From Haplodiscus bocki (lineage: Eukaryota): a DNA stretch of 64,000 nucleotides. The translations under genes and the position numbers were made by a program. Shown one piece after another: positions 5,601-33,056 of the stretch. The stretch covers positions 61,256,001 through 61,320,000 of the forward strand of contig OZ296648.1 of the NCBI GenBank assembly GCA_965655095.1. The letters run 5' to 3'. The stretch's first letter is position 1, and each line of letters starts with the position of its first letter. A model generated the notes under the pieces. It made no database searches and was not told where the DNA came from. It was given only the letters and a program-made list of their open reading frames with translations.

Positions 5601-8600
5601 AACCATGCCTCCAGACCAAATGTCTTGCAACGCAAAGCTAGGTTTTTCTCTCGTCTTGACGAATAACCTGTCCGTTAGTGGCAGCTCCAAATTGAGTTCT
5701 CTCCTGGGAATTTTGTACGTACAAATGGTTTTTGATAACGAACGGTTAATTTTTATGTCTTAAAGCCTTCAAAGTCGATAGCAATAACTTCACTCAACAG
5801 CTTAGTTACTTCGAACAGCGTCGATGTATTAGTTTGAATTTCATAGCGAAAGAAGTTGGGTTGACGTGAACGAACATCGCTAGAAACGTGAATGAACATC
5901 GGTAAAAACGCGAACGCAATTGGCTAACATCGGTTTGAAAACGCACCATTTGAATGGATGGTTTTCCCTAAGAATTTAGCATTCGGTGGAAATTATTAAA
6001 CTAGTGGCCGATTTGATATTTTCTCTGAGACATCTGAATTCTTCGGGTGTCAGCGGGATGACGACGATTTTCCTGGAAATATTACAACCAAGAAACTCGT
6101 ACCTCCTCCTTAACACGGCAAATACCTGTGTGTATGTCACATGTCGGGGGCACCGCCATTGGTTTAGACACGGGGGTAGCTGTAGGTTTTCAAGATCGTT
6201 TGCTTTGTAGACATTTTGCTGTCTCTGTTTCATCAAGCAATTGTGCGAATCCTTTTTCCTCGAGCACAGATCAAAGTAGTGCTCAGATTGATTGTGGTTA
6301 GAGCAATTATTATTGATACAATGCGAGAAATCTTTTACATTACGACCCGACTGTGTCCAACTCGATAACTTGGAATAAAAATTTCTGCAACAAGTTACAC
6401 TTTTTCTGTCCTTCTACACAGAAGACAGCATTGTGGAATCAGTTTTTCAAACTTGTCAGAAAATGTGAGCAGGAGCGAGTCGCGAGTTCCTGTATTTCAG
6501 TCCAAACCATGCCTCCAGACCAAATGTCTTGCAACGCAAAGCTAGGTTTTTCTCTCGTCTTGACGAATAACCTGTCCGTTAGTGGCAGCTCCAAATTGAG
6601 TTCTCTCCTGGGAATTTTGTACGTACAAATGGTTTTTGATAACGAACGGTTAATTTTTCTGTCTTAAAGCCTTCAAAGTCGATAGCAATAACTTCACTCA
6701 ACAGCTTAGTTACTTCGAACAGCGTCGATGTATTAGTTTGAATTTCATAGCGAAAGAAGTTGGGTTGACGTGAACGAACATCGCTAAAACGTGAATGAAC
6801 ATCGGTAAAAACGCGAACGCAATTGGCTAACATCGGTTTGAAAACGCACCATTTGAATGGATGGTTTTCCCTAAGAATTTAGCATTCGGTGGAAATTATT
6901 AAACTAGTGGCCGATTTGATATTTTCTCTGAGACAGCTGAATTCTTCGGGTGTCAGCGGGATGACGACGATTTTCCTGGAAATATTACAACCAAGAAACT
7001 CGTACCTCCTCCTTAACACGGCAAATACCTGTGTGTATGTCACATGTCGGAGGCACCGCCATTGGTTTAGACACGGGGGTAGCTGTAGGTTTTCAAGATC
7101 GTTTGCTTTGTAGACATTTTCCTGTCTCTGTTTCATCAAGCAATTGTGCGAATCCTTTTTCCTCGAACACAGATCAAAGTAGCGCTCAGAGTGATTGTAG
7201 TTAGAGCAATTAATATTGATACAATGCGAGAAATCTTTTACATTACGACCCGACTGTGTCCAACTCGATAACTTGGAATAAAAATTTCTGCAAGAAGTCA
7301 CACTTTTTCTGTCCTGCTACACAGAAGACAGCATTGTGGAATTAGTTTTCCCAACTTGTCAGAAAATGTGAGCAGGAGCGAGTCGCGAGTTCCTGTATTC
7401 CAGTCCAAACCATGCCTCCAGACCAAACGTCTTGCAACGCAAAGCTAGGTTTTTCTCTCGTCTTGAGGAATAACTTGTCCGTCAGTGGCAGCTCCAAATT
7501 GAGTTCTCTCCTGGGAATTTTGTACGTACACATAGTCTTTGATAACGAACGGTTAATTTTTCTGTCTTAAAGCTTTCGAAGTCGATAGCAATAACTTCAC
7601 TCAACAGCTTAGTTACTTCGAACAACGTCGATGTAATAGTTTGAATTTCATAGCGAAAGAAGTTGGGTTGACGTGAACGAACATCGCTAGAAACGTGAAT
7701 GAACATCGGTAAAAACGCGAACGCAATTGGCTAACATCGGTTTGAAAACGCACCATTTGAATGGATGGTTTTCCCTAAGAATTTCGAATTTGGTGGAACT
7801 TATTAAACTAGTGGCCGCTTTGATACTTTCTCTGAGACAGCTGAATTCTTCGGGTGTCAGCGGGATGACGACGATTTTCCTGGAAATATTACAACCAAGA
7901 AACTCGTACCTCCTCCTTAACACGGCAAATATCTGTGTGTATGTCACATGTCGGAGGCACCGCCATTGGTTTAGACACGGGGGTAGCTGTAGGTTGTCAA
8001 GATCGCTTGCTTTGTAGACATTTTCCTGTCTCTGTTTCATCAAGCAATTGTGCGAATCCTTTTTCCTCGAACACAGACCAAAGTAGCGCTCAGAGTGATT
8101 GTAGTTAGAGCAATTAATATTGATACAATGCGAGAAATCTTTTACTTTACGACCCGACTGTGTCCAACTCGATAAATTGGAATAAAAATTTCTGCAACAA
8201 GTCACACTTTTTCTGTCCTTCTACACAGAAGACAGCATTGTGGAATCAGTTTTTCAAACTTGTCAGAAAATGTGAGCAGGAGCGAGTCGCGAGTTCCTGT
8301 ATTCCAGTCCAAACCATGCCTCCGGACCAAATGTCTTGCAAAGCAAAGCTAGGTTTTTCTCTCGTCTTGAGGAATAACTTGTCCGTCAGTGGCAGCTCCA
8401 AATTGAGTTCTCTCCTGGGAATTTTGGACCTACACATAGTCTTTGATAACGAACGGTTAATTTTTCTGTCTTAAAGCTTTCGAAGTCGATAGCAGTAACT
8501 TCACTCAACAGCTTAGTTACTTCGAACAACGTCGATGTAATAGTTTGAATTTCATAGCGAAAGAAGTTGGGTTGACGTGAACGAACATCGCTAAAAACGT

Positions 8601-11600
8601 GAATGAACATCGGTAAAAACGCGAACGCAATTGGCTAACATCGGTTTGAAAACGCACCATTTGAATGGATGGTTTTCCCTAAAAATTTCGAATATGGTGG
8701 AAATTATTAAACTAGTGACCGATTTGATACTTTCTCTGAAACAGCTGAATTCTTTGGGTGTCAGCGGGATGACGACGATTCTCCTGGAAATATTACAACC
8801 AAGAAACTCGTACCTCCTCCTTAACACGGCAAATACCTGCTTGTATGTCACATGTCGGGGGCACCGCCTTTGGTTTAGACATGGGGGTAGCTGTAGGTTG
8901 TCAAGATCGCTTGCTTTGTAGACATTTTCCTGTCTCTGTTTCATCAAGCAATTGTGCGAATCCTTTTTCCTCGAACACAGACCAAAGTAGCGCTCAGAGT
9001 GATTGTAGTTAGAGCAATTAATATTGATACAATGCGAGAAATCTTTTACTTTACGACCCGACTGTGTCCAACTCGATAAATTGGAATAAAAATTTCTGCA
9101 ACAAGTCACACTTTTTCTGTCCTTCTACACAGAAGACAGCATTGTGGAATCAGTTTTTCAAACTTGTCAGAAAATGTGAGCAGGAGCGAGTCGCGAGTTC
9201 CTGTATTCCAGTCCAAACCATGCCTCCGGACCAAATGTCTTGCAAAGCAAAGCTAGGTTTTTCTCTCGTCTTGAGGAATAACTTGTCCGTCAGTGGCAGC
9301 TCCAAATTGAGTTCTCTCCTGGGAATTTTGGACCTACACATAGTCTTTGATAACGAACGGTTAATTTTTCTGTCTTAAAGCTTTCGAAGTCGATAGCAGT
9401 AACTTCACTCAACAGCTTAGTTACTTCGAACAACGTCGATGTAATAGTTTGAATTTCATAGCGAAAGAAGTTGGGTTGACGTGAACGAACATCGCTAAAA
9501 ACGTGAATGAACATCGGTAAAAACGCGAACGCAATTGGCTAACATCGGTTTGAAAACGCACCATTTGAATGGATGGTTTTCCCTAAAAATTTCGAATATG
9601 GTGGAAATTATTAAACTAGTGACCGATTTGATACTTTCTCTGAAACAGCTGAATTCTTTGGGTGTCAGCGGGATGACGACGATTCTCCTGGAAATATTAC
9701 AACCAAGAAACTCGTACCTCCTCCTTAACACGGCAAATACCTGCTTGTATGTCACATGTCGGGGGCACCGCCTTTGGTTTAGACATGGGGGTAGCTGTAG
9801 GTTTTCAAGCTCGTTTGCTTTGTAGACATTTTGCTGTGTCTGTTTCATCAAGCAATTGTGCGAATCCTTTTTCCTCGAGCACAGATCAAAGTGGCGCTCA
9901 GAGTGATTGTAGTTACAGCAATTATTATTGATACAATGCGAGAAATCTTTTACATTACGACCCGACTGTGTCCAACTCGATAACTTGGAATAAAAATTTC
10001 TGCAACGAGTCACACTTTTTCTGTCCTACACAGAAGACAGCATTGTGGAATCAGTTTTTCAAACTTGTCAGAAAATGCGAGCAGGAGCGAGTCGCGAGTT
10101 CCTGTATTCCAGTCCAAACCATGCCTCCAGACCAAATGTCTTGCAACGCAAAGCTAGGTTTTTCTCTCGTCTTGAGGAATAACTTGTCCGTCAGTGGCAG
10201 CTCCAAATTGAGTTCTCTCCTGGGAATTTTGTACGTACACATAGTCTTTGATAACGAACGGTTAATTTTTCTGTCTTAAAGCTTTCGAAGTCGATAGCAA
10301 TAACTTCACTCAACAGCTTAGTTACTTCGAACAACGTCGATGTAATAGTTTGAATTTCATAGCGAAAGAAGTTGGGTTGACGTGAACGAACATCGCTAGA
10401 AACGTGAATGAACATCGGTAAAAACGCGAACGCAATTGGCTAACATCGGTTTGAAAACGCACCATTTGAATGGATGGTTTTCCCTAAGAATTTCGAATTT
10501 GGTGGAACTTATTAAACTAGTGGCCGCTTTGATACTTTCTCTGAGACAGCTGAATTCTTCGGGTGTCAGCGGGATGACGACGATTTTCCTGGAAATATTA
10601 CAACCAAGAAACTCGTACCTCCTCCTTAACACGGCAAATATCTGTGTGTATGTCACATGTCGGAGGCACCGCCATTGGTTTAGACACGGGGGTAGCTGTA
10701 GGTTTTCAAGATCGTTTGCTTTGTAGACATTTTCCTGTCTCTGTTTCATCAAGCAATTGTGCGAATCCTTTTTCCTCGAACACAGACCAAAGTAGCGCTC
10801 AGAGTGATTGTAGTTAGAGCAATTAATATTGATACAATGCGAGAAATCTTTTACATTACGACCCGACTGTGTCCAACTCGATAACTTGGAATAAAAATTT
10901 CTGCAAGAAGTCACACTTTTTCTGTCCTTCTACACAGAAGACAGCATTGTGGAATCAGTTTTCCCAACTTGTCAGAAAATGTGAGCAGGAGCGAGTCGCG
11001 AGTTCCTGTATTCCAGTCCAAACCATGCCTCCAGACCAAATGTCTTGCAACGCAAAGCTAGGTTTTTCTCTCGTCTTGACGAATAACTTGTCCGTTAGTG
11101 GCAGCTCCAAATTGAGTTCTCTCCTGGGAATTTTGTACGTACACATAGTCTTTGATAACGAACGGTTAATTTTTCTGTCTTAAAGCTTTCGAAGTCGATA
11201 GCAATAACTTCACTCAACAGCTTAGTTACTTCGAACAGCGTCGATGTATTAGTTTGAATTTCATAGCGAAAGAAGTTGGGTTGAAGTGAACGAACATCGC
11301 TAAAACGTGAATGAACATCGGTAAAAACGCGAACGCAATTGGCTAACATCGGTTTGAAAACGCACCATTTGAATGGATGGTTTTCCCTAAGAATTTAGCA
11401 TTCGGTGGAAATTATTGAACTAGTGGCCGATTTGATATTTTCTCTGAGACAGCTGAATTCTTCGGGTGTCAGCGGGATGACGACGATTTTCCTGGAAATA
11501 TTACAACCAAGAAACTTGTACCTCCTCCTTAACACGGCAAATACCTGTGTGTATGTCACATGTCGGAGGCACCGCCATTGGTTTAGACACGGGGGTAGCT

Positions 11601-13429
11601 GTAGGTTTTCAAGATCGTTTGCTTTGTAGACATTTTCCTGTCTCTGTTTCATCAAGCAATTGTGCGAATCCTTTTTCCTCGAACACAGACCAAAGTAGCG
11701 CTCAGAGTGATTGTAGTTAGAGCAATTAATATTGATACAATGCGAGAAATCTTTTACATTACGACCCGACTGTGTCCAACTCGATAACTTGGAATAAAAA
11801 TTTCTGCAAGAAGTCACACTTTTTCTGTCCTTCTACACAGAAGACAGCATTGTGGAATCAGTTTTCCCAACTTGTCAGAAAATGTGAGCAGGAGCGAGTC
11901 GCGAGTTCCTGTATTCCAGTCCAAACCATGCCTCCAGACCAAATGTCTTGCAACGCAAAGCTAGGTTTTTCTCTCGTCTTGACGAATAACTTGTCCGTTA
12001 GTGGCAGCTCCAAATTGAGTTCTCTCCTGGGAATTTTGTACGTACACATAGTCTTTGATAACGAACGGTTAATTTTTCTGTCTTAAAGCTTTCGAAGTCG
12101 ATAGCAATAACTTCACTCAACAGCTTAGTTACTTCGAACAACGTCGATGTAATAGTTTGAATTTCATAGCGAAAGAAGTTGGGTTGACGTGAACGAACAT
12201 CGCTAGAAACGTGAATGAACATCGGTAAAACGCGAACGCAATTGGCTAACATCGGTTTGAAAACGCACCATTTGAATGGATGGTTTTCCCTAAGAATTTC
12301 GAATTTGGTGGAACTTATTAAACTAGTGGCCGCTTTGATACTTTCTCTGAGACAGCTGAATTCTTCGGGTGTCAGCGGGATGACGACGATTTTCCTGGAA
12401 ATATTACAACCAAGAAACTCGTACCTCCTCCTTAACACGGCAAATATCTGTGTGTATGTCACATGTCGGAGGCACCGCCATTGGTTTAGACACGGGGGTA
12501 GCTGTAGGTTGTCAAGATCGCTTGCTTTGTAGACATTTTCCTGTCTCTGTTTCATCAAGCAATTGTGCGAATCCTTTTTCCTCGAACACAGACCAAAGTA
12601 GCGCTCAGAGTGATTGTAGTTAGAGCAATTAATATTGATACAATGCGAGAAATCTTTTACTTTACGACCCGACTGTGTCCAACTCGATAAATTGGAATAA
12701 AAATTTCTGCAACAAGTCACACTTTTTCTGTCCTTCTACACAGAAGACAGCATTGTGGAATCAGTTTTTCAAACTTGTCAGAAAATGTGAGCAGGAGCGA
12801 GTCGCGAGTTCCTGTATTCCAGTCCAAACCATGCCTCCGGACCAAATGTCTTGCAAAGCAAAGCTAGGTTTTTCTCTCGTCTTGAGGAATAACTTGTCCG
12901 TCAGTGGCAGCTCCAAATTGAGTTCTCTCCTGGGAATTTTGGACCTACACATAGTCTTTGATAACGAACGGTTAATTTTTCTGTCTTAAAGCTTTCGAAG
13001 TCGATAGCAGTAACTTCACTCAACAGCTTAGTTACTTCGAACAACGTCGATGTAATAGTTTGAATTTCATAGCGAAAGAAGTTGGGTTGACGTGAACGAA
13101 CATCGCTAAAAACGTGAATGAACATCGGTAAAAACGCGAACGCAATTGGCTAACATCGGTTTGAAAACGCACCATTTGAATGGATGGTTTTCCCTAAAAA
13201 TTTCGAATATGGTGGAAATTATTAAACTAGTGACCGATTTGATACTTTCTCTGAAACAGCTGAATTCTTTGGGTGTCAGCGGGATGACGACGATTCTCCT
13301 GGAAATATTACAACCAAGAAACTCGTACCTCCTCCTTAACACGGCAAATACCTGCTTGTATGTCACATGTCGGGGGCACCGCCTTTGGTTTAGACATGGG
13401 GGTAGCTGTAGGTTTTCAAGCTCGTTTGC

Positions 13430-13925
13430 TTTGTAGACATTTTGCTGTGTCTGTTTCATCAAGCAATTGTGCGAATCCTTTTTCCTCGAGCACAGATCAA
13501 AGTGGCGCTCAGAGTGATTGTAGTTACAGCAATTATTATTGATACAATGCGAGAAATCTTTTACATTACGACCCGACTGTGTCCAACTCGATAACTTGGA
13601 ATAAAAATTTCTGCAACGAGTCACACTTTTTCTGTCCTACACAGAAGACAGCATTGTGGAATCAGTTTTTCAAACTTGTCAGAAAATGCGAGCAGGAGCG
13701 AGTCGCGAGTTCCTGTATTCCAGTCCAAACCATGCCTCCAGACCAAATGTCTTGCAACGCAAAGCTAGGTTTTTCTCTCGTCTTGAGGAATAACTTGTCC
13801 GTCAGTGGCAGCTCCAAATTGAGTTCTCTCCTGGGAATGTTGTACGTACACATAGTTTTTGATAACGAACGGTTAATTTTTCTGTCTTAAAGCCTTCAAA
13901 GTCGATAGCAACAACTTCACTCAAC
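13430..13925 (-). pseudogene. Frameshifted DEDD-exonuclease-like small gene of the type carried by Polinton/Maverick-like elements (last copy given; present in every full array unit)
   Basis: Manual - strand translation across frameshifts: (L/M)SEVVAIDFEGFKTEKL / PFVIK-LCVR... / ERKT*LCVARHLVWRHGLDWNTG / FLTSLKN*FHNAVFCVGQKKCDSLQKFLFQVIELDTVG / NVKDFSHCINNNCCNYNHSERHFDLCSRKK. This fits the recalled pattern IDFEGF...FIIKEL...HGLxWxxG...YVKGxEK...LDxLGCP...C..H...CAxxK. Confidence 0.6.
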
Positions 13926-13939
13926 AGCTTACTTACTTC

Positions 13940-14541
13940 GAAGAACGTCGATGTAATAGTTTGAATTTCATCGCGAAAGAGGTTGGGTCGAGGTCTTGCG
14001 AGTGACCACTGATAGTTTGCTCGCAATTATGTAGAAAAATTGTTTCTAGGAGACAAGCTAACCGGCAGACTCCGTTCTTGTGGAAAAACCAACTATTCAG
14101 AGTTTTGATTTTTCGGGAACTGTCTCTCGATAAACATCACTATCAATGAATAGAGATATTTCTTTACACAGACCTATGATGAAGCGAAATCAATCTTCTA
14201 CAGTTGCATAAAATAAGAAATTGTCCTTCGATGGTAGGAGATCGTTTGCAGGAAACTAATTGCAATTTCCCATCGGATATATAGAGGTTGTGTGAGTAAA
14301 GTGAAGAGAACTTTCATGGAAACCGTAATTACCGTTGGTAGTTTGATTTGAAAAATTCAAAAATTCTGCCGTGAGTAAAGCAGACTGATTCTTGTTTCTG
14401 TTCAAATTGCCTAAGTCCCTTTAATGTCTCAGTTATTTTCGTTGAATTGCCAAGTTCATCTAGAAGCAAAAGATTTCTCATTGCTGTACTTTGACGATTG
14501 TTATCAAATAACTCATCATTCTAGTAACTATTATTCGTCAT
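13940..14541 (-). pseudogene. Degenerate ORF directly upstream of the array's exonuclease-like gene (parent-locus flank)
   Basis: Reads MTNNSY*NDELFDNNRQSTAMRNLLLLDELG... and ends LETIFLHNCEQTISGHSQDLDPTSFAMKFKLLHRRSSK*. The tail PTSFAMKFKLLHRR is included in every array unit. Confidence 0.4.
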
Positions 14542-19400: not shown

Positions 19401-19790
19401 ATAAGTTATAAGTATCATAATGTCTTTTCCCAAATCTGTTTGCTAACTCTTTTCAAATGATTTACAGTATGTTCTTGGGATGTATTTCAACTCTCAACAT
19501 ACAGCTCACATACTTTAGAAGACCTTCTACTGCCCTATGGGACGCTTTGGGATTTTCTTTTGATGAGATACTGGGTTTTCATTTCTTGACCCCAATTTTC
19601 TGTTCACAGTTTTTTTTAACATATATTAGATGTTAATTTGTTCCCGTTGAAACAATATTCAGATGGTATATGTGCTTCGGAAGCGACTTTTTTAAACTGT
19701 TTACATATGTGACATTTGGTTTTATCTCCTGTTTTAAGAAAATGCTATTTTGATCTTAATTGTTTATAGATACTGTAATATTCTAATGAT
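16444..19790 (-). pseudogene. Protein-primed family-B DNA polymerase (pPolB) relic of a Polinton/Maverick
   Basis: Ordered - strand motifs: N-terminal Cys/His fingers (~19500-19720), ExoI-like VYADSE (~18640), IKVIPNTNE..VS.ENGCSKLIES (~18090-18160), LENIHDRELILSFEARNRSRISGVKG (~17560-17640, RGGIS region), motif B LLNIAFYGKTM (~17135-17170), motif C LHSRDCDSL (~16885-16910), WTDEACALRAKGYALKC (~16680-16730), C-terminus LSSFDDRIYLNAIETDPWS* ending at 16444. Heavily disrupted. Confidence 0.85.
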
Positions 19791-19939
19791 CATTTTTTTA
19801 AATTAAATTCTACAATGCAGAAGAGCATGATCTGTTTTCAATATTTTTGGAACCGTTAAATCTTGGCGCTGTTAATTTTTTTGAAGTTTGAGAGACAATG
19901 AACCCTACCCTAATCGGAAATACTGATTTCCGGAGAAGT

Positions 19940-21760
19940 AGACAACCAATAAACCAGTGGACAGGAAAAAAATGTACAGTATCCACATGCAAATTAAAGG
20001 CCGAGAAGACAGATTGAAGAATAACTTTTTTTGAGTTGTAATTTCCGCAATATGACAGAAGTAGAGTGATTAAATGAAGCTGAAAATAAGAGATTTGAAG
20101 AAAGAGAATTCTGAATTGCTACTGAATAGTTGATTATTCTGGAAATTAATTCTTCAAATATTCAAAAGATTTTTCCTCACACCACGCGCTGAAGATAGCC
20201 ACTAAGGAATAAAGTAGAGTATTACAAATAAGAAAGGATCGAAACTTGAAGTCCATCAAAAAACAAACATAGCCCTTTTACAGATACTTTTTCTATGTAA
20301 AGTTGAAAAGCAATCGTCGCAATGACATCTTGAGCAGTCCCTGGGTTTAGTTGATCTCGCCATTTTTTTGATGAAGTACTATATAAAAAAATACTTATTC
20401 ATAAGGTTTTCGTATATATACGTTGAATTGTAGTTTGTCGAAATTTTAGAATTTTGGAAGTTGATATCTGGAAAACTCCTGTTTGGCTTGTGCTCATCCA
20501 GTGACCAGTCAAAAGGTTACTGTTGGCAGAAGCTCTTGAGAACTGGGAGGGAGCAATTTCATACGTTTTAGGCGCTACTTCTTGACTTATAGTTTCAGCT
20601 TTTGAAGTTTTCTACTTTCGCTTTTCCACTTTTTTCTCGAGGGCTACTGGTTTCATTCTGCTCGTCCAGTGTTCGTTCGAAAACCTTTTGTCCTAGGAAT
20701 CTATGGAGAACTGTGATATTTAACTTCATAACATCCTTGCAATAGTTCGCGACATGTAGTGTGAATTCCGAAGTTTGTACTACTTTCCGTGTTCTTTAAA
20801 GTTTTTTTCTCAATATACTACTAGTTGGATTGTGCTCATCGAGTGCTCGTTCTTGCCTATCGTATGTTCCACTGAAATTCCCTAACAAGCAATAACAGAA
20901 AGCACTAATAGATACTGGTGCCTGTGCAAATGCAATCAGTGAAAAAGATTACGAAGACATGAAATCATCATTTGGAACGACAGCAACCATCTCAAAACCT
21001 TCTGAGGTCAGTAATGTTAAATTAGCTTCAGGACAACTTATACCGGTGCGTGGCCAAACTCGAGTTTTCAATAGCAAAATAATATTTCAAACAATATTTT
21101 TTAGTAGTACTTCCTAACACGAATAGCATCATTTTGGGAAATCCATTTTTCAAAAACAATATTGAACTTTACCCAAGAGAGAACCTGATGAAGTTACCTG
21201 ACTTGTCGCTTCAGTTGATTGAAATATCAACGCAATCAGCTGAAATCGGAAATCTCCGATACACTATCAGAACACTTGACAAATGCGTCATCCCCCCAAC
21301 CAACAAACAACACTAAATTGCAATCTCCAAACGAAAAACAAACCATATGCTGATGTATGTGGTGTAGTCGAACCAAAAGTAAATTGGAAGAAAAAACTAG
21401 ATTGTGCAGCACCTCTTCCTTATCGCGAACTGACTCTGAAGCAAATTTGTAATTATCTGCCTGAAACCTCCAAAGCAATGAGATCACAATTCCCCGAAAT
21501 TCGGACTTCGCCTACTTCAATTTTCTTTCACCACACCAACCGGAAACGTTAATCTCGACATACCGCAATTACTAACATCGGCGGAATTCAAAAACCAGAG
21601 GACCTTGAGCATGAAATCAACCAGCTGATAATTGATGAAGAATTCATTGCAAACTCTCAACCACCTACACCAAAACCAGACAACAAAAAATTTCTGGTTC
21701 CCAACACCAGAAACATGCCTCAACCCATCAGCACTGAAAGATGTTGAAAAGGATATTCAC
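19940..21760 (+). repeat. Direct repeat copy 1 (~1.82 kb near-identical, preceded by a ~170-bp diverged leader from ~19770)
   Basis: Matches 30481-32301 at constant offset 10,541 (ORFs 21134/31675 and 21517/32058 are identical). Three substitutions noticed by eye: 20058/30599, 20518/31059, 20754/31295. Confidence 0.97.
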
Positions 21761-24050
21761 TGACTTCTGAAAACTACAAAAACTAAATAGTATAGACCCA
21801 CACATTAGTATTGATACCGTAACCAATTCTTGCAGAGATTCGAATGGAACGAATTTATACTGAAAGCGGACGAAAAATAACAAGTTGAGGAATTACTGGT
21901 TGAAATTTCGGATAGTTTCGCAAAAGGCAGATTTGATGTTGAATTTAATTCTAAAATCTCCATGAAATTAACGCCAGAGTACTACTAACCGGTCAACACT
22001 CAAAGCCACCCAACGCCGATTCACTTACGTGAAAACTTTGGGTAGAGCTCGATCTCCTGGAATATTTCGGAATCATCACAAGTCTCAACCATTCAAAATA
22101 CAATACAGCTGTCCATTCTTTGCACACCGCAAACCAAATGGTGAACCCAGAATTCTAGCGGACTTACGCCGAATCAATCACCTCTTGTTACATGACTATC
22201 ATAACAGTTTCTTGATTTCAACAATGGCAGACGCAACAGCAGAGTTTGCGGGAATATCAATCTTTTGTAAACTAGGTTGCTCTCAAGTGTACCACTGTGT
22301 ACAAATGGCTGACCCTCTTTCGGTACAACTACTTGCATTCAATTTTGCTTGCCGAGCTATGGCTTATCAGAGATTAGCTAGAAGTCTGAACAGATCTGTT
22401 GCAGGCTTCAGTGCCCTTGAGAATCCACTTAGAGCGATGTCTCTCAGCAAATGTTTGCACACAGTTCATGGATGATATTGGATGTGGAGTAGAATCAGTT
22501 GAAAAACTCATACCCAACTTCCGACTCATCCTAAAATGCTTACCAAGATCAGGACCGAAACTATCGCTAGAGAAATGTGTCTTTAGATCACAAAAAGTTA
22601 GTTTCCTTTGAAACGTCATAACAAAAGAAGGCCTACAACCTGAAGACTAAAATTGAAAACTTCCTGAAAACACTTGAAATAACAAAATCCTTGAAGCAAG
22701 TAAAACGACTAATCGGTTTCCTACAAATCTTTTGCAGTTTCATCCCGAATCTGAGCGAACACCTCATACTTTTCTACAAACTTTTGCGGGAAAATGTTTC
22801 ATTTGGAATTACAGATGAGATCAAAGTTGCTTTCGAAAAACTTAGAGACAAACTCGAAACTTCCACAACGCAAACACATAGACTTGCCAAACCAGGACTC
22901 GAATATGCCATTTTATGTGACGCTAGTTATCACTCGAGTGGATTTGTAATATTTATAGAAGACTATGTCCAAAACAAAGAAGAAACTGTTAAATTTTATG
23001 CAGCTGTGTCATTTGGATGTGAAGTTTTCAATACAACGCAACTAAGGACGTCAATATACTGCAAGGCGTTCCTATCCCTCTACTTTGCCTCGGACGCTTT
23101 CTCTCATTTGATATGGGGAGGTGAAAAACCAATACTCATACTGCCTGACAACAAAAGTTTAACCAGATTTCTCCAAGCCAAAACAATTCCTCCATCCCTT
23201 TGGATTTATGTGGATAGATTTACAGCATTTAGCATTGTGTTAAGTCACGTTCCAGGAAAAGCCAATGTTGCAGCAGATTTTTTATCTCGCTTGCGATCAA
23301 TCCTGAACGAAACATATGATTTGAAACTTACAGACAGAATCCCAATCAGAGAAATTGAAGTTGATGTACGAGCAAAGCTACCAGACAACACAAACAGTGA
23401 GTTCTTTGCAGACAATTTACCAGTTGACTCACTCCAAGTAGTCGATATAAACACACTGATAACCCTCAAACAATCTGGATTTTATGATCAGGCAGTGAGC
23501 CAACTAAAATTTCACACCGAACATGGAACTATTAGTGACGAAATGCAACAAGAAAATAAGAAATTAACGCCACTCCACACACCAACCCAATGAATGACTA
23601 TCCCGAATTGGAAACAACAATAGCTAATCTGAAAAAAGAACAAAATTCTGAGCCGTTGATAACAAAAGTGATCAAATGGTTGCGAACTGACTCTGCACCT
23701 ACAGCAAGCATCTACTCTACTGGAGAAGAACAGAAGTACCTGAAGCAGTTTCGACGATTGTTCGCTGGAAGTGGAATACTCTACAGAAGATACTTCGCAC
23801 ACAATGGCAAAATGTTTAACAAACAATTGTGCCTGCCAAAAACAGTGGTAAAAGGAGTCGTGTATACAATACATAACGCCCCAACTGGAGAACACTTGAG
23901 AGTAACGAGAACCATTGAGGAATTCAGAAAACGCTTCTATTGTCCGAACTATGTGGAATTAGTCAAAGATTTTTATCAGAAACTGTTCTACATGCTTCCA
24001 AATGAACCAAGTACAGCCCTCACGACTTAGACCACCACGACAAGAAGTGC
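20865..24050 (+). pseudogene. pol: Gypsy pol pseudogene (aspartic protease, reverse transcriptase, RNase H, integrase zinc finger; integrase core missing)
   Basis: Protease ALIDTGACANAIS (~20902-20940) and ILGNPFF. RT YSCPFFAHRKPNGEPRILADLRRINH...KLGCSQVYH...AYQRL...QFMDDIG (~22100-22480). RNase H ILCDASY...DNKSL...HVPGKANVAADFLSR (22900-23290). HHCC IHNAPTGEH...RFYCP...IRNCSTC (23870-23995). Many stops and frameshifts. Confidence 0.95.
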
Positions 24051-24221
24051 TAAACGAAGAAACCAAGGACAACGGTCGAAGCAAGAAACTCTGTCGATCT
24101 TCCTAATAATCGTCGCCAACAACGCCAGCAAATGCAATTCGTAAAAAGACCAGGAGCGAGACAAGAGGGATCATCTGAAAAACGAAGTAGAACCGATTTG
24201 AACCAAATCCAACTAGCTCAG

Positions 24222-24645
24222 AGTACCTCAAAAGTGACCATAGTGGCAGACGATCTTTTTGGAACTTCCTGCTGTATGGGACACTGTTTCTTCTGACTTT
24301 TTCATGAGAGCAGGTATCGCTAAGCGATTGGATCAACTCTACCCAAAAATCAAACAAAGCTTAGAGGACTAACACCAGGATCAGTGTTTGCATTCTACGA
24401 TAGATATTCACGAAGATGGATTTCGTAACCAAACCCAAATACTTTCAAACCCTTCTAGGACGAATTAAAAAACAGCCTCACCATGATCCGCAACCACGCC
24501 GACTCTCATGGATTGAAAAACATTCGACTACCGGAACTAGGATGTGGCTTAGACAAACTTCAACCATCAATAGTGCACAAACTTCTACGCAAAGTTTTCC
24601 AAAAGTCCCAAGTAGCGGTGACAATCTGTATAAGACGCCACTAGC
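24222..24645 (+). pseudogene. TARG1/OARD1 (Macro_Poa1p-like) macrodomain relic inside the Gypsy element
   Basis: Across ~4 frameshifts and 1 stop: KVTIVADDLFGTSCCMGHCF-SDFFMRAGIAKRLDQLYP...LTPGSVFAFYDRYSRRWI-VTKPKYF-KPF*DELKNSLTMIRNHADSHGLKNIRLPELGCGLDKLQPSIVHKLLRKVFQKSQVAVTICI. The hallmark motifs GDLF, HCxSxDxxMGAGIA, LVTK and PxIGCGLD are all present in order. Confidence 0.88.
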
Positions 24646-27600
24646 CGATAAAAGGAACGGCTAAACAGAAACTGAACTGAAAACCACTACCAAAGATAAC
24701 AATGAATTCGAACGGTAACTGAGAATCTTTCAAAAAATGAAAACTTCCAGGAGTCGATGAGCAAAAAACACTCCTGAAAACACGTGGAATGAAATTATTC
24801 TACACAGAACCATAAAGGACAGGCCTTTAGGCAATGGACCTTGGCAGAATTGTGACTGGAAACTGCTAAAGTTTCCAAAAGCGGCAGTTACAGACCTTGT
24901 GCCACTGCGAACCCCAAGACAACACTAGATAACTTTGCAAGCAGAATAGCTCAACACGCAGGTCGCAACCTCTGCTACACTATAGGATGTACAGGCAGAC
25001 ACTTACAGGCCTTCGTCAAACCACAATGCAACATCAACGGAAACACGTTTCCGAAGGACAACAATTGACCAATTTTTGACACTGCCAAGGTCACGAAAAC
25101 ACAAAAAGGTACGTTACGTACAAAACTATCTTCTACACTTCACCCGAAGTTACCAGTACATGATAGGGTATATTAGCATGACCTAGCGACGGTTAATCCC
25201 TCCTAAAACATACCAAGACTTAACACATACCTATAGTCCATAGATTTCAGATTGTGACACTACGAAGATTACAAAAACAACAGATTAGCCATACGATAGG
25301 ATCATTTTGAGATCCTCTCTCAGAGACATTTTGGCATTTAGATCTCATAGTAATGCGACCAAAAACCTATGATCCCACAAAAAAATTAGATGTCACGGAC
25401 AATTAACGTAAATCATTCCCATGCGACCTTAATTCAAATGCACCGCCTATTTTTAACGCCTATCCACAAAAACATGAATGTACGGAAAACTTGCGAAAAA
25501 AAAGTAACTAACCATTATCGAGCCGGACGGTGAATCTTTTCTTAGTCGCCCGAGATCGGTTGCCACGTTTCCTTTGGAGGATACGAAACTGTTGATCGTT
25601 ACACCGGTTAAGAGATTTTCCTGCCAATTCTACTGCCTGCTCTTCGGGTTACTTTTTGTTGTGGCTCAAAAGGCAATTCCAAGAATCGTGTGGAGTGACA
25701 CTTCGGAAAAGAAGCGTTGTGCGGGCAGGAAAACAAACAGTATAACTAGTTTCCTGAATGCAGAATAATGAATCTTATTAACGACCAAGAGCAAGGTCTT
25801 CCACGAATTGCTGCATATGACTGCTCTGGCCTCCGAATTAAGCAGCTGCCTCCGAATTAAGGCAGCTGCAGACTTTGAACCATGGGTGGCGAATAACCAG
25901 AGCTTGCGACCTCTTAACAGCGATGCGAAAATTTCAGCAGGCGGCTTATTGTCGAAATGCCAACCAGTATGACAATTTCTAGTAGCTAGCAGAAGACTGG
26001 CTCATGCACAATGCAGAGGAACAATAGCACTATGGAACCATTGATTAGGATTCTTTACATTCTTTTTCGTGGAACTAATGCAGTTAACACTTTTGTGTCA
26101 AAAGAACACTAACTCCGCCCCCCCCCCATTGTGAAATGTCGGCGTAGTACTGACAAACTAGTACTACTAAAGGCTAACTTTTGCAGTAACTTCACTTTGA
26201 AGGAACACGCAATACCACGCACAGCAGTGATAGCTTTAAACTTGGCAGCTTCTTTAATTGGAACTGCAACCACTGCGCGACAATGCATACGGCACAGATC
26301 CAATACTATTTTGAATTGCTCCATTGGCACTCTGAAAAGTAGCAACATTCAGTTAAATACCCATGGCTTACAAGAAACATACTCACAGAAGAAGGCACGT
26401 TCCGAGACTTACTTTTAAGGCTACTCAGTTGCAAAGTGAGTGAAATTAATTTCCATTTGCAAATTTGTTCAGAAACCACGAGATGAGTATTCAAGTTGAA
26501 TATCAGTTGAAATCAACTAACGCAATGTCTGCAATTCAAAAGGTAATAATCTAACTACAGAATTAAACTAAACTAAGCAATGAAGATGCCTGAACTGCAG
26601 TTAAAACTCTTGAGCCATTGGCCACAATTGTTTCTGGGACGACATTTCACCTCAGAGTCTGCGGTCATGGCTCCTCACGCTGTCTGTTCTTTCTTCTCTC
26701 CAAGCAGAACAACAGAATGCTGAAGAACAACAGGAATACGACTCCTAAAACGACAAACTTTCATACTTACGGAATTCATAACAAGTAGCCTTAGGTCTGT
26801 CAGAACTTGCAACCGGACACTGCGGATCGCGATGCGGAGGAAACTCAACCCTATGGAGCCCCGCCACATTGTTGTTCCATCATCGCAACATTCAAGGAAG
26901 GCGCCTCCGCACAAAGGAACATTCCATGATCTGAAAAACAATTTACTCGAAATTTATGTAACGACGGCGGCCCCGTACGGAAAGTCAACCAATATAAGAT
27001 GACAGCAAGCTCATACATTGAGCCAACAAACCAAATGAAGCTCATCTCCGCGTAAATGACATTAATTACATAACTTTAATAATGAGAAAGCAACTCATAA
27101 AGAAGCACACACAAAACTTGTAACGTCGCAGACCTTAATATCTGCTGAACAAACAAAAACCAGATCACTTATCGCGACCAGCGCGTCCAACGAAAGAAAC
27201 ACTTCTAAGAAAAACATACTCACCGTGCAAACGGGACCCATCAACAAGAAATAACACCGTAAAAATGGACGCATGTATACCACTACTCATCTTACAGCAC
27301 TGGATGTGTTATTTCAATTCATGGGAACCCTAGTTAATGAAACAGCTCGATGATTTTTACCGCTACCTTAACAAATACAAAACAATCGCCCTTCGATGTT
27401 TTCCGATTCCAAATTGACAGCCCTGACAAACATTTAATATCTGACCAAACACGTATATCCGGACCAACATTTGATATCCGTCGCAGTCCAGCCCACATCA
27501 ACTTTGATATCCGCCGAAACACCGATTGTGTATTCATTTTCATTCAAATTCATTCTCGAACTACCACATTCATTCGAGACCCTAACCGCCCAAACTACGG

Positions 27601-27877
27601 CATTCATTCGAGACCCTAACCTCCCAACAGTTAGGGATTCATTCTCCTTACCCGAGAACGCAGAACCTAAGAAAATGCTAACATTTTTGCATGACAAAAT
27701 ATCTATCCAAGAACGGCTGGAGCAGTTTGAAATTCAGTTGAACTTTTCTAGTTCGAACTGAAGAATTACTTGAAACCGTATTAGCGAACAGGTATGGAAA
27801 ATTTTTTTACAGTCCATTGGCAACTGATACCGTAAGAGCTACAATTCTAAGTAAGCCGACTATCGACACCACCCGGA

Positions 27878-28237
27878 ATGAAGGATCCAATATATATGAA
27901 GGCTATCCAACTACAGCAATTTGGATGTTGTCCCTTTATCAGAATGAAAGTCTTCAAAGCCCACAAAGAGCCCTACTACATTGTAATCGAAAGTGACAGT
28001 ATCGAATATGACAGTCTTTACGATGACCTGAATAAATATTTCAAATCGTTGAAGTCAGAGTCCATATTCAAAGACAAACTGGAAGAAATATTGGACCATT
28101 TGGACGATGATTTATCAATGGACCAAATTTGCAAGTTTATCCTCCCGATTATTTATATTTTAACTGGATTGGGAAAAAAAGAAATATTCAGTTCAACTTC
28201 CACTAGGTCTTTGGTTAAAAAAAGATCAGTCGACTAA
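27878..28237 (+). CDS. 119-aa open ORF of unknown function in the retroelement accessory region, just upstream of env
   Basis: ATG-initiated and uninterrupted (MKDPIYMKAIQLQQFGCCPFIRMKVFK...), ending 21 bp before the env-like ATG. May be the tail of a longer broken ORF. Confidence 0.3.
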   Translation: MKDPIYMKAIQLQQFGCCPFIRMKVFKAHKEPYYIVIESDSIEYDSLYDDLNKYFKSLKSESIFKDKLEEILDHLDDDLSMDQICKFILPIIYILTGLGKKEIFSSTSTRSLVKKRSVD

Positions 28238-28258
28238 AAATCTAAAAGACCTCCCACA

Positions 28259-30276
28259 ATGATCCTACCTTCCCTTTTTTACATACTAGTCGCAACAGAT
28301 GAGAAAGGAAGTCTTGAGCGAGGAGTATTTCTTCACGAAGACACAAAAATACTTTTGGCAGAAAAATTTGTAAATGACCAATTCTTAGTCCCAAAGTAGA
28401 TTGGCTTCTAAAAGAAACCGAAAAGGACATTTTGTTCACCGGCAAAGATTTGAACAAAATAAAACAAGAAGTATCCTTCTTTCTGAAGGGCAACAAAACC
28501 AAGGAAAAACATAGACTAGAAGAGCATTACCTGTTGCAGCCGCAGTAGCAGACGCCGTAGGGTTATTCGGAACAGGCATCATGTCCGGTGCATCAGATGA
28601 TTGTTGGCTTTTGGGTATTTTTAGCTCTTGCCAAGAAATGGCCCCAACAAATGCGAGAAACATTGAAATGTTAGGAGATTATACAATAGCCATTGGAGAC
28701 CACCTACAACAACTTGCGAGCGCAACCGATGAAAAAATTTTTCGCGTCTCAACAGATTTAACCCTCATTCACGAAATGCAAAACCAAATTATCGGACCCC
28801 AAAACGAGAATTGGCGAAAGATAGAGAAACAGTACCAAGTATTCCGAGAGAATGTCCACGACATGCGCTATTTTGATCAACTCCTACACACAACACAACA
28901 GGTGAACTTCAATTTCCATAGAATTTCTTCTCTGCTTTCGCTAATCTACAGCCACGTCAAAATCGAGCCGCTCTATTTGCATTCCAGATGAACATAATGA
29001 ACGCTTTTCCCTCTCTTTTTTCAGAATACGTTCCAGTGTGTCCCTACTACCTGAGGAGTCCTTGAAAAAAATTGAAAGTTATTGAAGACTCAAAAGAGAA
29101 GTCCCGTGACAGACATGCATTGGCCATTCCAAAGCAAGATGGCCTTCTGATGACACGGGCGATTCCATTGGCTTCTCGAGAAACAGCATTCACAGTCTAC
29201 AAAGCAATGGTGGTACCTCTACCCCAAAGCGACGATGACATGACAATTAAATGGAATGTCGAAGCAGAATACCTGGCAGTATTGGAAAACTTGATGGAAA
29301 CTTCTCTAGTAACCAGAGACCAACTCGACAAATATCTTGGTTCAAGCAATTATAGAATCTGTCATGAAACATTAGCGACAGTAATTAAAGACTCTTCATG
29401 TCTAGCAACGTTTTATATTGGAAACATTCTGGATGCGCTAGAAGAGTTTGTGATACAGTCCCAGTCCCACTACCACTGAAATATAAAGCAACAAATCTGG
29501 GATATTGAATGCATCTCCTAACTTCAGCACAGGCAAACTTCGTGTTCAAAGAAACCTATGTGGACGCTACAACCCTGGCAGGCTCAAAAACAGTCAAGGG
29601 ATGTAGAATCTGCCTAATAACACTAGAATGTGGTGAACAGTTAACTGCAAAAGTTCCACCAGTGAAATTGGATCTGGAACTGCCCAAACCGATGGCCAAT
29701 TTTTTCAGCCTACTTCCAACAGTGGATGAACTAAGTTGCTACAACAAGAAAGTGGAAGCTAATATGAAACTACTGAAGTATGTCAACTTCGAACTTCAAG
29801 CCCAACTACAATATAGCTGCAAAAGGAACATCCAACAAATAGCTGTACCCATCGCAAAGAAATTAACAATGCGTGAGCCCTCGTTTGAGAAGAAATTCAA
29901 TGAGTATATTTTGTGGAAAAGTCGTTTGGTTGTTAGAAATGCAGGATTCATCCTTAGTGCGCTACTGCACTTGGGACTAATGATTGCACTATATCGCTAC
30001 AGAAATCTTTGCAAATTCCAACCCTTCTCTCATAAGCTGGATGAACAGAAAATCCCTCCAACCGAATATGGTGGTAGAAGAACAACACTTGAATCGTGTG
30101 CAAAATTACATATTTTTCCAATGGCGCAATCAAAGTCTATTACTGCCCGAATCTCAACTGATGGAAAGAATAGTAGAATAAAGTGCACCTACATATGCAC
30201 ACCTCAACCGACAAATGCACCGAGTTTAAGAAAAGCTAACCTCCATGCAAGCATGGATAATAATTCAGACAACTGA
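28259..30276 (+). pseudogene. env: Envelope (env)-like fusion glycoprotein pseudogene
   Basis: Signal-like start MILPSLF.. at 28259. Basic cleavage-like TRR followed by the hydrophobic fusion-peptide-like ALPVAAAVADAVGLFGTGIMSG (~28515-28590). Heptad/helical region 28650-28990, Cys-rich ectodomain (ICHETLA, GCRICLITLECG) and C-terminal TM GFILSALLHLGLMIALY (~29945-29995). Broken by stops and frameshifts. Confidence 0.85.
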
Positions 30277-30480
30277 AAATTCAGCCGGAGAAGTAAACTT
30301 GAAGTCGGCTAGTGTATTGTTCTGATGATTATTTTATTATGACATAATTTCTACGATGCAGAGAAGCATGATCTAATTTCACTATCTTTGGAATCATTGA
30401 ATCTTGGCGCTGTTAAATTTCTTGAAGTTTGAAAGACAATGAACCCTTCCCTAATCAGAAATACTAATATGCGGAAAAAT

Positions 30481-32301
30481 AGACAACCAATAAACCAGTG
30501 GACAGGAAAAAAATGTACAGTATCCACATGCAAATTAAAGGCCGAGAAGACAGATTGAAGAATAACTTTTTTTGAGTTGTAATTTCCGCAATATGACAAA
30601 AGTAGAGTGATTAAATGAAGCTGAAAATAAGAGATTTGAAGAAAGAGAATTCTGAATTGCTACTGAATAGTTGATTATTCTGGAAATTAATTCTTCAAAT
30701 ATTCAAAAGATTTTTCCTCACACCACGCGCTGAAGATAGCCACTAAGGAATAAAGTAGAGTATTACAAATAAGAAAGGATCGAAACTTGAAGTCCATCAA
30801 AAAACAAACATAGCCCTTTTACAGATACTTTTTCTATGTAAAGTTGAAAAGCAATCGTCGCAATGACATCTTGAGCAGTCCCTGGGTTTAGTTGATCTCG
30901 CCATTTTTTTGATGAAGTACTATATAAAAAAATACTTATTCATAAGGTTTTCGTATATATACGTTGAATTGTAGTTTGTCGAAATTTTAGAATTTTGGAA
31001 GTTGATATCTGGAAAACTCCTGTTTGGCTTGTGCTCATCCAGTGACCAGTCAAAAGGTCACTGTTGGCAGAAGCTCTTGAGAACTGGGAGGGAGCAATTT
31101 CATACGTTTTAGGCGCTACTTCTTGACTTATAGTTTCAGCTTTTGAAGTTTTCTACTTTCGCTTTTCCACTTTTTTCTCGAGGGCTACTGGTTTCATTCT
31201 GCTCGTCCAGTGTTCGTTCGAAAACCTTTTGTCCTAGGAATCTATGGAGAACTGTGATATTTAACTTCATAACATCCTTGCAATAGTTCGCGACTTGTAG
31301 TGTGAATTCCGAAGTTTGTACTACTTTCCGTGTTCTTTAAAGTTTTTTTCTCAATATACTACTAGTTGGATTGTGCTCATCGAGTGCTCGTTCTTGCCTA
31401 TCGTATGTTCCACTGAAATTCCCTAACAAGCAATAACAGAAAGCACTAATAGATACTGGTGCCTGTGCAAATGCAATCAGTGAAAAAGATTACGAAGACA
31501 TGAAATCATCATTTGGAACGACAGCAACCATCTCAAAACCTTCTGAGGTCAGTAATGTTAAATTAGCTTCAGGACAACTTATACCGGTGCGTGGCCAAAC
31601 TCGAGTTTTCAATAGCAAAATAATATTTCAAACAATATTTTTTAGTAGTACTTCCTAACACGAATAGCATCATTTTGGGAAATCCATTTTTCAAAAACAA
31701 TATTGAACTTTACCCAAGAGAGAACCTGATGAAGTTACCTGACTTGTCGCTTCAGTTGATTGAAATATCAACGCAATCAGCTGAAATCGGAAATCTCCGA
31801 TACACTATCAGAACACTTGACAAATGCGTCATCCCCCCAACCAACAAACAACACTAAATTGCAATCTCCAAACGAAAAACAAACCATATGCTGATGTATG
31901 TGGTGTAGTCGAACCAAAAGTAAATTGGAAGAAAAAACTAGATTGTGCAGCACCTCTTCCTTATCGCGAACTGACTCTGAAGCAAATTTGTAATTATCTG
32001 CCTGAAACCTCCAAAGCAATGAGATCACAATTCCCCGAAATTCGGACTTCGCCTACTTCAATTTTCTTTCACCACACCAACCGGAAACGTTAATCTCGAC
32101 ATACCGCAATTACTAACATCGGCGGAATTCAAAAACCAGAGGACCTTGAGCATGAAATCAACCAGCTGATAATTGATGAAGAATTCATTGCAAACTCTCA
32201 ACCACCTACACCAAAACCAGACAACAAAAAATTTCTGGTTCCCAACACCAGAAACATGCCTCAACCCATCAGCACTGAAAGATGTTGAAAAGGATATTCA
32301 C
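30481..32301 (+). repeat. Direct repeat copy 2 (Polinton-A tail plus Gypsy protease region), truncated at ...ggatattcac
   Basis: Sequence identity to 19940-21760. The leader 30311-30480 aligns to ~19770-19939 but with many substitutions. Confidence 0.97.
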
Positions 32302-33056
32302 GAAATATAACTCTTCGAAATTTATAACTCTGCGTTTTTTTTCAAAGTTTCTTTTTTTGAAGATTACAAAATTATGGGCATTCTGTCCTCATTGAAAAGC
32401 GTAGATTTTGGAGAAGCTTTTGGGAACCCGGAAATGTGCCCTTTTTACCTTCCACGCGATATATGTCTTACCTTCCACGCGAGCTATGTATAACTTTAAT
32501 GTGAATTTCGAAAATTTAGTACTTTAACTCTTTTTGCAAATGTTTTCCCGACGTTTACTGATTGGATTGTGCTAATCCAGTGCTTGTTCGAAAGCCCGGA
32601 AAATGGCTTTTCTAAAAAAAAGAAGATATACCCGTTTTTTTGTTGGTTCCATATTTCTCACGTTAAATGTTCGGAATTAATTTTGCAGATTAAAAGTTTT
32701 TACTTCGTGTCTTTTGTCAGATTGATTTTTGTCGACGACTACTGGTTAGATTGCGGCCATCCATTGCTCATTTAATATCCCGCGACGTACGCAATCGGCG
32801 GTGGAGCCGGAAAGTTCTATTCCATACGGATGTATTTGAAAATTCCTATTCATTGGATTCTTTTTTTTCTGCAAATTTTTCATATTGAAAACAACGACAA
32901 TCAATTAAACTTTTCTTGTCGGCTGGGAATAAGACGATTCCCTTGCTCACTTTCGTTGCAAGTGTATGCGAAGCGCAGCTCTGCCTATTTTTCTTGATTT
33001 CTCGAAATGATTTTTTCTTCATCATGACGGTTGGTATCAATTTTTGTTTCTTGTAG

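What the first reader, a model, noticed from the sequence alone, without database searches (positions are those of the whole stretch)
24222..24645. Gypsy retroelement carrying a TARG1/OARD1-type macrodomain (ADP-ribose eraser)
Invisible in the ORF track because of frameshifts, but all hallmark motifs are present in order (DDLF, HCxSDxxMRAGIA, VTKPKY, LPELGCGLDKL). Established: TARG1/OARD1 and the related DarG macrodomain reverse protein or DNA ADP-ribosylation, and many RNA viruses use macrodomains against PARP-based defence. Inference: this env-bearing LTR lineage encodes a counter-defence or integration-repair module downstream of integrase. It is co-oriented and as decayed as pol and env, consistent with being native cargo. 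I cannot tell from here how widely this has already been described.
Basis: partly seen in the sequence, partly recalled or inferred. Interest (0 to 1): 0.8.

Follow-up and report, generated by a model that had tools for sequence, protein, structure and literature searches.

The report
Retrotransposon Pol ending in ADP-ribose eraser
This is a dead copy of an animal jumping gene whose family carries an ADP-ribose-removing enzyme domain on the tail of its integrase, which suggests these elements undo or read a host chemical mark when they insert.

Summary
Confirmed. Window 24222-24644 (+) is a broken TARG1/OARD1-type macrodomain (4 frame changes, 1 stop). Its unbroken half matches human TARG1 (E 4e-7); an intact relative matches at E 1e-22 and folds onto TARG1 at 1.3 A. 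Both catalytic residues survive.

It is native cargo, but not a separate gene: it is the last domain of Pol. Of 62 long Pol relatives, 10 end in it, in frame behind integrase and a long linker, where chromoviruses carry a chromodomain. All 10 fall with the window in one clade (100/99); none of 21 Pols outside has it. Six keep the catalytic pair; three have lost it. This copy has lost about 500 aa of integrase and its gag. Env is inferred from anatomy only. A weak antisense JmjC-like remnant lies between macro and env.

Macrodomains in retroelements are not unheard of (fish ERVs; other layouts among my hits). I found no paper on this Pol-terminal form in 10 searches. Function is untested; an eraser travelling with integrase is most likely, a targeting reader is the rival. 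Host not identified.

The parts
19774..19938 (+). Start of the 5' LTR-like repeat (begins TGT; its end was not determined)
   Evidence: Repeats at 30313; 31 mismatch or indel columns in the first 168 nt, then 3 in 1822 nt
20857..21066 (+). Pol aspartic protease (broken). No gag seen between the LTR start and here
   Evidence: Pfam gag-asp_proteas E 0.016; tblastn of full Pols
21059..21551 (+). Region between protease and RT; dUTPase-like in relatives (inferred for the window)
   Evidence: Matches Pols; Pfam dUTPase in P0143 E 2e-4 and P0157 E 0.03; window pieces alone give no hit
21692..22644 (+). Reverse transcriptase region (broken)
   Evidence: 45-78% identity to RT-bearing Pols
22643..23386 (+). 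RNase H (unbroken frame)
   Evidence: PF17917 E 5e-7, PF17919 E 2e-6
23563..24049 (+). Integrase N-terminal part with zinc finger
   Evidence: PF17921 E 7.5e-7; Pol matches end at 24049
24050..24071 (+). Approximate junction of a deletion that removed the integrase core, its C-terminal part and most of the linker (about 500 aa)
   Evidence: Gap of 543-632 aa in 5 full Pols against 57 aa in the window
24072..24221 (+). Remnant of the Pol tail linker, in frame with the start of the macrodomain
   Evidence: Aligns to P0001 58-107 and P0153 889-954
24222..24644 (+). TARG1/OARD1-type macrodomain, last domain of Pol, broken. Catalytic Lys codon at 24431, catalytic Asp codon at 24552
24645..24942 (+). 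Sequence behind the macrodomain that other copies share; function unassigned
   Evidence: P0008, P0089 and P0002 match here; no Pfam family
25652..26001 (-). JmjC-like remnant, antisense to pol; possible second cargo (weak)
   Evidence: Pfam JmjC E 0.021, under the cut-off; Atlas JmjC clusters 0.90-0.92; no PDB hit; downstream piece no hit
27851..30276 (+). Env-like gene in pieces (inferred): hydrophobic stretch at 28527 after basic residues, NLGY motif at 29494, cysteine-rich part, transmembrane-like stretch at 29938. 5' limit uncertain
   Evidence: no significant Pfam or PDB match
30310..32301 (+). 3' LTR-like repeat followed by a near-identical duplicate of the element's first 2 kb, cut off at 32301
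   Evidence: 1992 nt, 98.3% identical to 19771-21760

Best explanation
A Ty3/Gypsy lineage captured a TARG1-type macrodomain once and fixed it as the last domain of Pol, behind integrase and a 200-285 aa low-complexity linker (shown). In working elements it is made with Pol and so is packaged in the particle; it probably stays on integrase and goes with the cDNA into the nucleus (inferred from position). Most lineages keep the Lys/Asp pair, so it is probably an active terminal ADP-ribose hydrolase (inferred from conservation). Its likely job is to strip ADP-ribose that host PARPs put on the element's RNA, cDNA or proteins, or on the nicked target DNA, so that reverse transcription and integration go through (inferred from TARG1 and DarG chemistry). 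It is an accessory, not a core part. The window copy is dead.
For: Fusion: 10 of 62 long Pol relatives end in the domain; six whole ones score 99-120 bits. The six stand for 10-121 member sequences each and have RNase H, zinc finger and rve. The window's nearest Pol, P0153 (77% over 181 RNase H columns), runs from the integrase tail into the macro, 66-75% identical to the window's first macro pieces. One origin: all 10 plus the window sit in one 37-row clade (100/99); 9 of 9 members with a full tail carry it, 0 of 5 outside Pols with tails of 300 aa or more do. The 17 non-degenerate family macros form one group (SH-aLRT 96) with the same subgroups as the RNase H tree. Constraint: between subfamilies macro identity is 34-39% against 17-23% for the linker; Lys and Asp are each kept in 18 of 21 family domains and in 6 of 6 non-degenerate full Pols. 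Fold: model pLDDT above 85 over residues 111-250; top 8 hits all TARG1, rmsd 1.3 A to 4j5q, then DarG. Chemistry: TARG1 acts on protein, nucleic-acid-end and base-linked ADP-ribose (PMC7050489 passages; bioRxiv 10.64898/2026.03.31.715305 abstract).
Against: No activity or substrate was tested. P0131, P0141 and P0157 are full open Pols (1, 12 and 41 members) whose macro has lost the Asp, and in two cases the Lys, and has drifted to linker-level identity (15-30%). Sister Pols without the domain exist. The macro is much less conserved than RNase H or integrase core (65-84% for the same pairs). Whether the protease cuts the domain off was not tested. No host PARP acting on these elements is known to me.
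Confidence: 0.55

Rival explanations
1. The domain is mainly a reader that tethers integrase to ADP-ribosylated chromatin (for example DNA-damage sites), as a chromodomain does for chromoviruses.
For: It sits where the chromodomain sits, C-terminal to integrase (PMC13524379 passages), on a long flexible linker. The ALC1-like class holds both readers and erasers. Three lineages keep the domain in frame after losing catalytic residues; P0141 still hits TARG1 at E 1.7e-11.
Against: The catalytic pair is kept in 6 of 6 non-degenerate Pols. The degenerate forms have also lost the GCGLD loop, which by TARG1 structure should cost them ADP-ribose binding too (inference). No insertion-site data were available.
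Confidence: 0.25
2. The enzyme serves housekeeping in the particle or host cell (clearing O-acetyl-ADP-ribose or capped RNA ends, or dampening sirtuin/PARP silencing of the element), not integration.
For: TARG1 also hydrolyses O-acyl-ADP-ribose and ADP-ribose on nucleic-acid ends. SIRT6 ADP-ribosylation helps silence L1 (PMC4695847 passages). TARG1-type domains also occur next to gag, protease, RNase H and in an ORF1-like protein, so integrase attachment is not required. A possible JmjC cargo would fit anti-silencing.
Against: Pol is made in low amounts (general knowledge), which suits a local job. The JmjC evidence is weak.
Confidence: 0.12
3. A passenger: captured once, harmless at the end of Pol, and slowly decaying.
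For: Three lineages have degenerate forms; the domain is far less conserved than the core enzymes.
Against: Catalytic and binding motifs persist across subfamilies only 32-39% identical in the domain, while the adjacent linker has drifted to about 20%.
Confidence: 0.06
4. A one-off host TARG1 retrocopy or insertion into this copy.
For: None, beyond the close likeness to TARG1.
Against: In-frame fusion in 10 Pols and matching trees.
Confidence: 0.01

Closest known systems
TARG1/OARD1/C6orf130 (ALC1-like macrodomain class)
   Same: Fold (rmsd 1.3-1.7 A for the best hits, about 36% identity), motifs and the Lys84/Asp125 pair.
   Different: TARG1 is a free cellular protein; here the domain ends an 1800-aa Pol. 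Activity is untested.
DarG macrodomain
   Same: Next-best fold hit (E 8e-11); weak NCBIfam match (E 4e-10).
   Different: 39.5 bits against a cut-off of 250; 23% identity; no DarG C-terminal part or DarT partner.
Macro domain ORFs of fish epsilon-like ERVs (Basta et al. 2009, seen only as cited in PMC4977317)
   Same: A macro domain carried by an env-bearing LTR retroelement.
   Different: Those are vertebrate retroviruses and are described as additional ORFs. Their macro class and position could not be checked (paper not held).
Chromoviruses and chromodomain-bearing errantiviruses
   Same: An extra host-derived domain at the C-terminus of integrase in Ty3/Gypsy Pol.
   Different: The domain here is an ADP-ribose hydrolase type, not a methyl-lysine reader.
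Tor3b/4b elements of Oikopleura and F-type errantiviruses
   Same: Gap between pol and env; an N-L-G motif next to aromatic residues, cysteines and a C-terminal transmembrane stretch (PMC4402516 passages).
   Different: No macro is mentioned for Tor (0 occurrences). F-x-G and a furin consensus are not met exactly in this decayed copy. No Tor sequence was compared.
Other retroelement-linked TARG1-type domains among my hits
   Same: Same domain class with the catalytic pair: P0012 (RT-RNase H-macro x2-integrase finger), P0051 (gag-macro), P0052 (macro-integrase finger), P0068 and P0075 (protease-macro), P0048 (PHD-macro-GDSL).
   Different: Other positions and other branches of the macro tree; a single origin for all is only marginally rejected (AU p 0.037, groups named after a first tree was seen).

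Membership tests
TARG1/OARD1-type macrodomain | Best sequence match is TARG1 | tested here: met
   Window piece E 4e-7; P0001 E 1e-22
TARG1/OARD1-type macrodomain | Minimal macro fold closest to TARG1 | tested here: met
   On intact relative P0001 (74% identical to the window domain), not on the window copy:
TARG1/OARD1-type macrodomain | Lys84 and Asp125 catalytic pair | tested here: met
   Window S/T/K/D all present; paired with TARG1 through the alignment; human numbering from PMC8120803, chain offset counted by me
TARG1/OARD1-type macrodomain | ADP-ribose hydrolase activity | not testable with these tools
   Needs an assay
DarG antitoxin | NF048014 above cut-off, DarT neighbour | tested here: not met
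   39.5 of 250 bits; no DarT-like Pfam hit in 24645-30300
Ty3/Gypsy (Metaviridae-type) LTR retrotransposon | Pol order protease-RT-RNase H-integrase | tested here: met
Ty3/Gypsy (Metaviridae-type) LTR retrotransposon | RT closest to Ty3 type | tested here: met
   Clade member P0141: best PDB hit Ty3 Gag-Pol E 3e-49, foamy virus next at E 3e-23. No tree with named Gypsy references was built
Ty3/Gypsy (Metaviridae-type) LTR retrotransposon | Flanking LTRs, PBS, PPT, target-site duplication | tested here: inconclusive
   TGT-starting direct repeats at 19774 and 30313; LTR end, PBS and TSD not found
Ty3/Gypsy (Metaviridae-type) LTR retrotransposon | gag gene and integrase DDE core | tested here: not met
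   Both missing in this copy; rve is present in full relatives; gag of relatives not examined
Env-bearing Gypsy (errantivirus / Tor-like) | Fusion glycoprotein gene before the 3' LTR | tested here: inconclusive
   Anatomy fits; no significant library match
Chromovirus | Chromodomain at the end of integrase | tested here: not met
   No chromodomain in 25 Pols scanned
JmjC dioxygenase (second cargo) | Profile match and HxD...H metal triad | tested here: inconclusive
   HFD motif seen, Pfam E 0.021, Atlas 0.90-0.92; distal His not seen; no PDB hit

The most novel reading that the evidence does not exclude
An undescribed clade of env-bearing Ty3/Gypsy elements has an active TARG1-type eraser bolted to integrase, which reveals a PARP-based defence against retrotransposons in invertebrates (or ADP-ribose-guided target choice). 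Repeated independent captures of the same domain class by other retroelements, plus an antisense JmjC cargo in this family, would make it a general, overlooked arms race over ADP-ribose and chromatin marks.
Probability: 0.3. Interest if true: 0.8.

Novelty: new variant of a known kind. Interest (0 to 1): 0.55.

Why it matters
RNA viruses use macrodomains against PARP defences, but whether ADP-ribosylation restricts retrotransposons in invertebrates is, to my knowledge, open. A hydrolase-type domain kept on integrase across subfamilies makes that testable with single small proteins, and the clade supplies natural controls: catalytic, degenerate and macro-less Pols. The domain is easy to miss: the precomputed Pfam lists show no Macro on any of the 62 Pols, and my scan found it in 1 of 25, under the cut-off.

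Tried and rejected
Direct searches for long fused proteins with the macro piece and with P0013 found none; the fusion appeared only through the RNase H query. A single-sequence fold of P0001 was poor (pLDDT 41) and was not used. No family was found for 24645-25650 or 26000-27850 in six frames. Env pieces gave only chance PDB rows (E 0.19 or worse). No Rfam or tRNA hits in the window. The group label 'acoelLike' came from my recall and no call supports it. Phage TARG1-like proteins exist (16 records; the 10 listed are 29-35% identical) and are no closer than TARG1, so a phage donor is not indicated. The Asp column printed was one residue off and was corrected. P0003 and P0004 are repeat-inflated hits and were ignored. 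P0028, P0100, P0102 and P0109 were grouped as retro-linked without Pfam support and are not counted. P0126 lacks the macro but is a 99% identical, truncated copy of P0151. Viral and metagenome contigs stayed unchecked, so DNA-level linkage of macro, JmjC and env in other copies is open.

Full report
Observation. The stretch 24222-24644 on the + strand holds the four motifs in the stated order, spread over three frames. Against the intact relative P0001 it falls into five frame pieces with one in-frame stop. The unbroken C-terminal 61 aa match human TARG1 at E 4e-7 and Pfam Macro only weakly (E 0.024). Read with X at the breaks, the domain scores 88.2 bits on a TARG1-like profile; the best of 1000 shuffles scores 5.9. 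P0001 is 74% identical over 129 columns, matches TARG1 at E 1e-22, passes the Pfam Macro cut-off, and its model superposes on TARG1 at 1.3 A, ahead of DarG, Poa1p and viral macrodomains. The residues that pair with TARG1 Lys84 and Asp125 are present in the window.

The element. A TGT-starting repeat at 19774 recurs at 30313. The first 168 nt differ in 31 columns and the next 1822 nt in 3. I read this as an old LTR pair plus a recent tandem duplication with its break inside the LTR, cut off at 32301 (inference). No gag is seen. Protease, RT, RNase H and the integrase zinc finger follow in Gypsy order from 20857 to 24049. There the match to full Pols stops: five Pols have 543-632 aa between that point and their macro, the window has 57. 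So the integrase core is deleted in this copy. Breaks run at 21 in 3.2 kb of pol and 4-5 in 0.41 kb of macro. An env-like gene in pieces lies at about 27851-30276. It has a hydrophobic stretch after basic residues, an NLGY motif, cysteines and a transmembrane-like stretch, which recalls Tor3b/4b env (PMC4402516), but no library confirms it and F-x-G and a furin consensus are not met exactly.

Native and fused. A search with the window's RNase H frame returned 62 proteins of 567-2000 aa. Ten end in the macrodomain: six whole and strong (P0134, P0143, P0146, P0148, P0151, P0152), three degenerate (P0131, P0141, P0157) and one partial (P0153, the window's nearest Pol). An RNase H tree of 57 of the 62 plus the window (five had too short a match) puts all ten and the window in one 37-row clade, 100/99. 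Of the 36 proteins in it, 20 end before the integrase tail and 6 within it, so they say nothing; all 9 with a full tail carry the domain. None of the 21 outside does, including 5 with tails of 310-491 aa. In the macro tree (89 of 100 domains, 11 short ones dropped) the 20 family domains form one side of a branch at SH-aLRT 84; without the three degenerate rows and one other long branch the 17 left reach 96. Two of these (P0037, P0101) were assigned to the family by likeness alone. Subgroups match the RNase H tree. This indicates one capture and descent with pol.

Constraint. Between subfamilies the macro is 34-39% identical, the linker before it 17-23%, RNase H and integrase core 66-76%. Lys and Asp are each kept in 18 of 21 family domains, against 77 and 75 of 79 other domains. 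All six strong Pols keep both. The three degenerate ones have lost the Asp and the GCGLD loop although their Pol frames are open with RT and integrase motifs. The domain is therefore selected in most lineages and dispensable, or repurposed, in some.

Mechanism. Shown: class, fold, catalytic residues, fusion, shared descent. Inferred: the domain is packaged with Pol, stays on integrase and removes ADP-ribose from the element's nucleic acid or proteins or from the target site (0.55). TARG1 acts on acidic-residue and nucleic-acid-end ADP-ribose (PMC7050489) and, in a 2026 preprint, on base-linked RNA marks. The rival is a reader that tethers integrase, by analogy with chromodomains at the same place (0.25; PMC13524379). 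Anti-silencing or housekeeping (0.12) and passenger (0.06) follow.

Prior knowledge. A review states that fish epsilon-like ERVs sometimes carry macro domain ORFs, citing Basta et al. 2009; that paper is not held, so its macro class is unchecked. Among my 122 hits, five outside this family join a TARG1-type domain to Pfam retroelement domains in other layouts, and one to a PHD-GDSL protein that I recall as a LINE ORF1 type. A single origin of all of these is marginally rejected (AU p 0.037). Ten literature searches showed no description of a Pol-terminal TARG1 domain in Gypsy. The 2026 survey of env-bearing Gypsy elements has no 'macro' in its main text; its seven held supplements have 10 'macro' strings, the 4 shown being species names, and no OARD1 or TARG1. 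Subscription papers, Repbase and CDD were not searchable, so prior notice is possible.

What I saw of each paper: passages of PMC4977317, PMC7050489, PMC8120803, PMC4695847, PMC8672886, PMC6431247 and bioRxiv 2021.11.30.470311; passages and section 7 of PMC4402516; passages and a term search of supplements of PMC13524379; the abstract and outline of bioRxiv 10.64898/2026.03.31.715305; nothing of Basta et al. 2009. Supplements of the two preprints were not seen; that of the chromatin preprint lists TE-domain fusions and may bear on novelty.

Verdict. A real, native feature. New variant of a known kind: an accessory macrodomain in a retroelement, here of the TARG1 class and fused to the end of integrase across a clade, with natural catalytic-dead forms. 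Function is inferred, the host is unidentified, and DNA-level linkage with env in other copies is unchecked. Interest 0.55.

Noticed in passing
window 25652-26001 (-): JmjC-like remnant antisense to pol, between macro and env (HFD and GRKLW motifs; Pfam E 0.021; Atlas 0.90-0.92). If it is in other copies it would be a second chromatin-type cargo; one paper search showed no such case.
   Followed up: partly
window 24645-25650 and 26000-27850: About 2.8 kb more between pol and env with pol-like A-rich skew and ORF fragments, no family match; the first 300 nt are shared with other copies.
   Followed up: partly
window 1-14000: Tandem array with a period of about 904 nt (about 15 copies), no Rfam or tRNA match.
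   Followed up: no
window 19771-21760 and 30310-32301: Recent tandem duplication with its break about 170 nt into the LTR; the second copy ends abruptly at 32301.
   Followed up: partly
window 20627-20851, 31168-31392, 32538-32772, 46084-47858, 50658-52646: Diverged repeats with about 174-176 nt spacing, some inside the region where gag should be.
   Followed up: no
proteins P0131, P0141, P0157: Full open Pols ending in a catalytically degenerate macrodomain.
   Followed up: partly
proteins P0143, P0157: dUTPase-like domain between protease and RT in this clade.
   Followed up: no
proteins P0012, P0048, P0051, P0052, P0068, P0075: TARG1-type macrodomains at other positions in other retroelements, including a tandem pair between RNase H and integrase.
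   Followed up: partly
proteins P0016, P0020, P0054, P0084, P0095, P0099, P0118: TARG1-type macrodomain fused to a ligase-3-type BRCT domain, one branch of the tree.
   Followed up: no
phage records H1-H10: TARG1-like proteins in Fusobacterium, Lactobacillus, Microbacterium and other phages.
   Followed up: no
window 55363-55441 and 56116-56194: 79-nt inverted repeat pair, 78% complementary, 674 nt apart; possibly a small DNA transposon.
   Followed up: no
window 59649-59848: 200-nt assembly gap (N).
   Followed up: no
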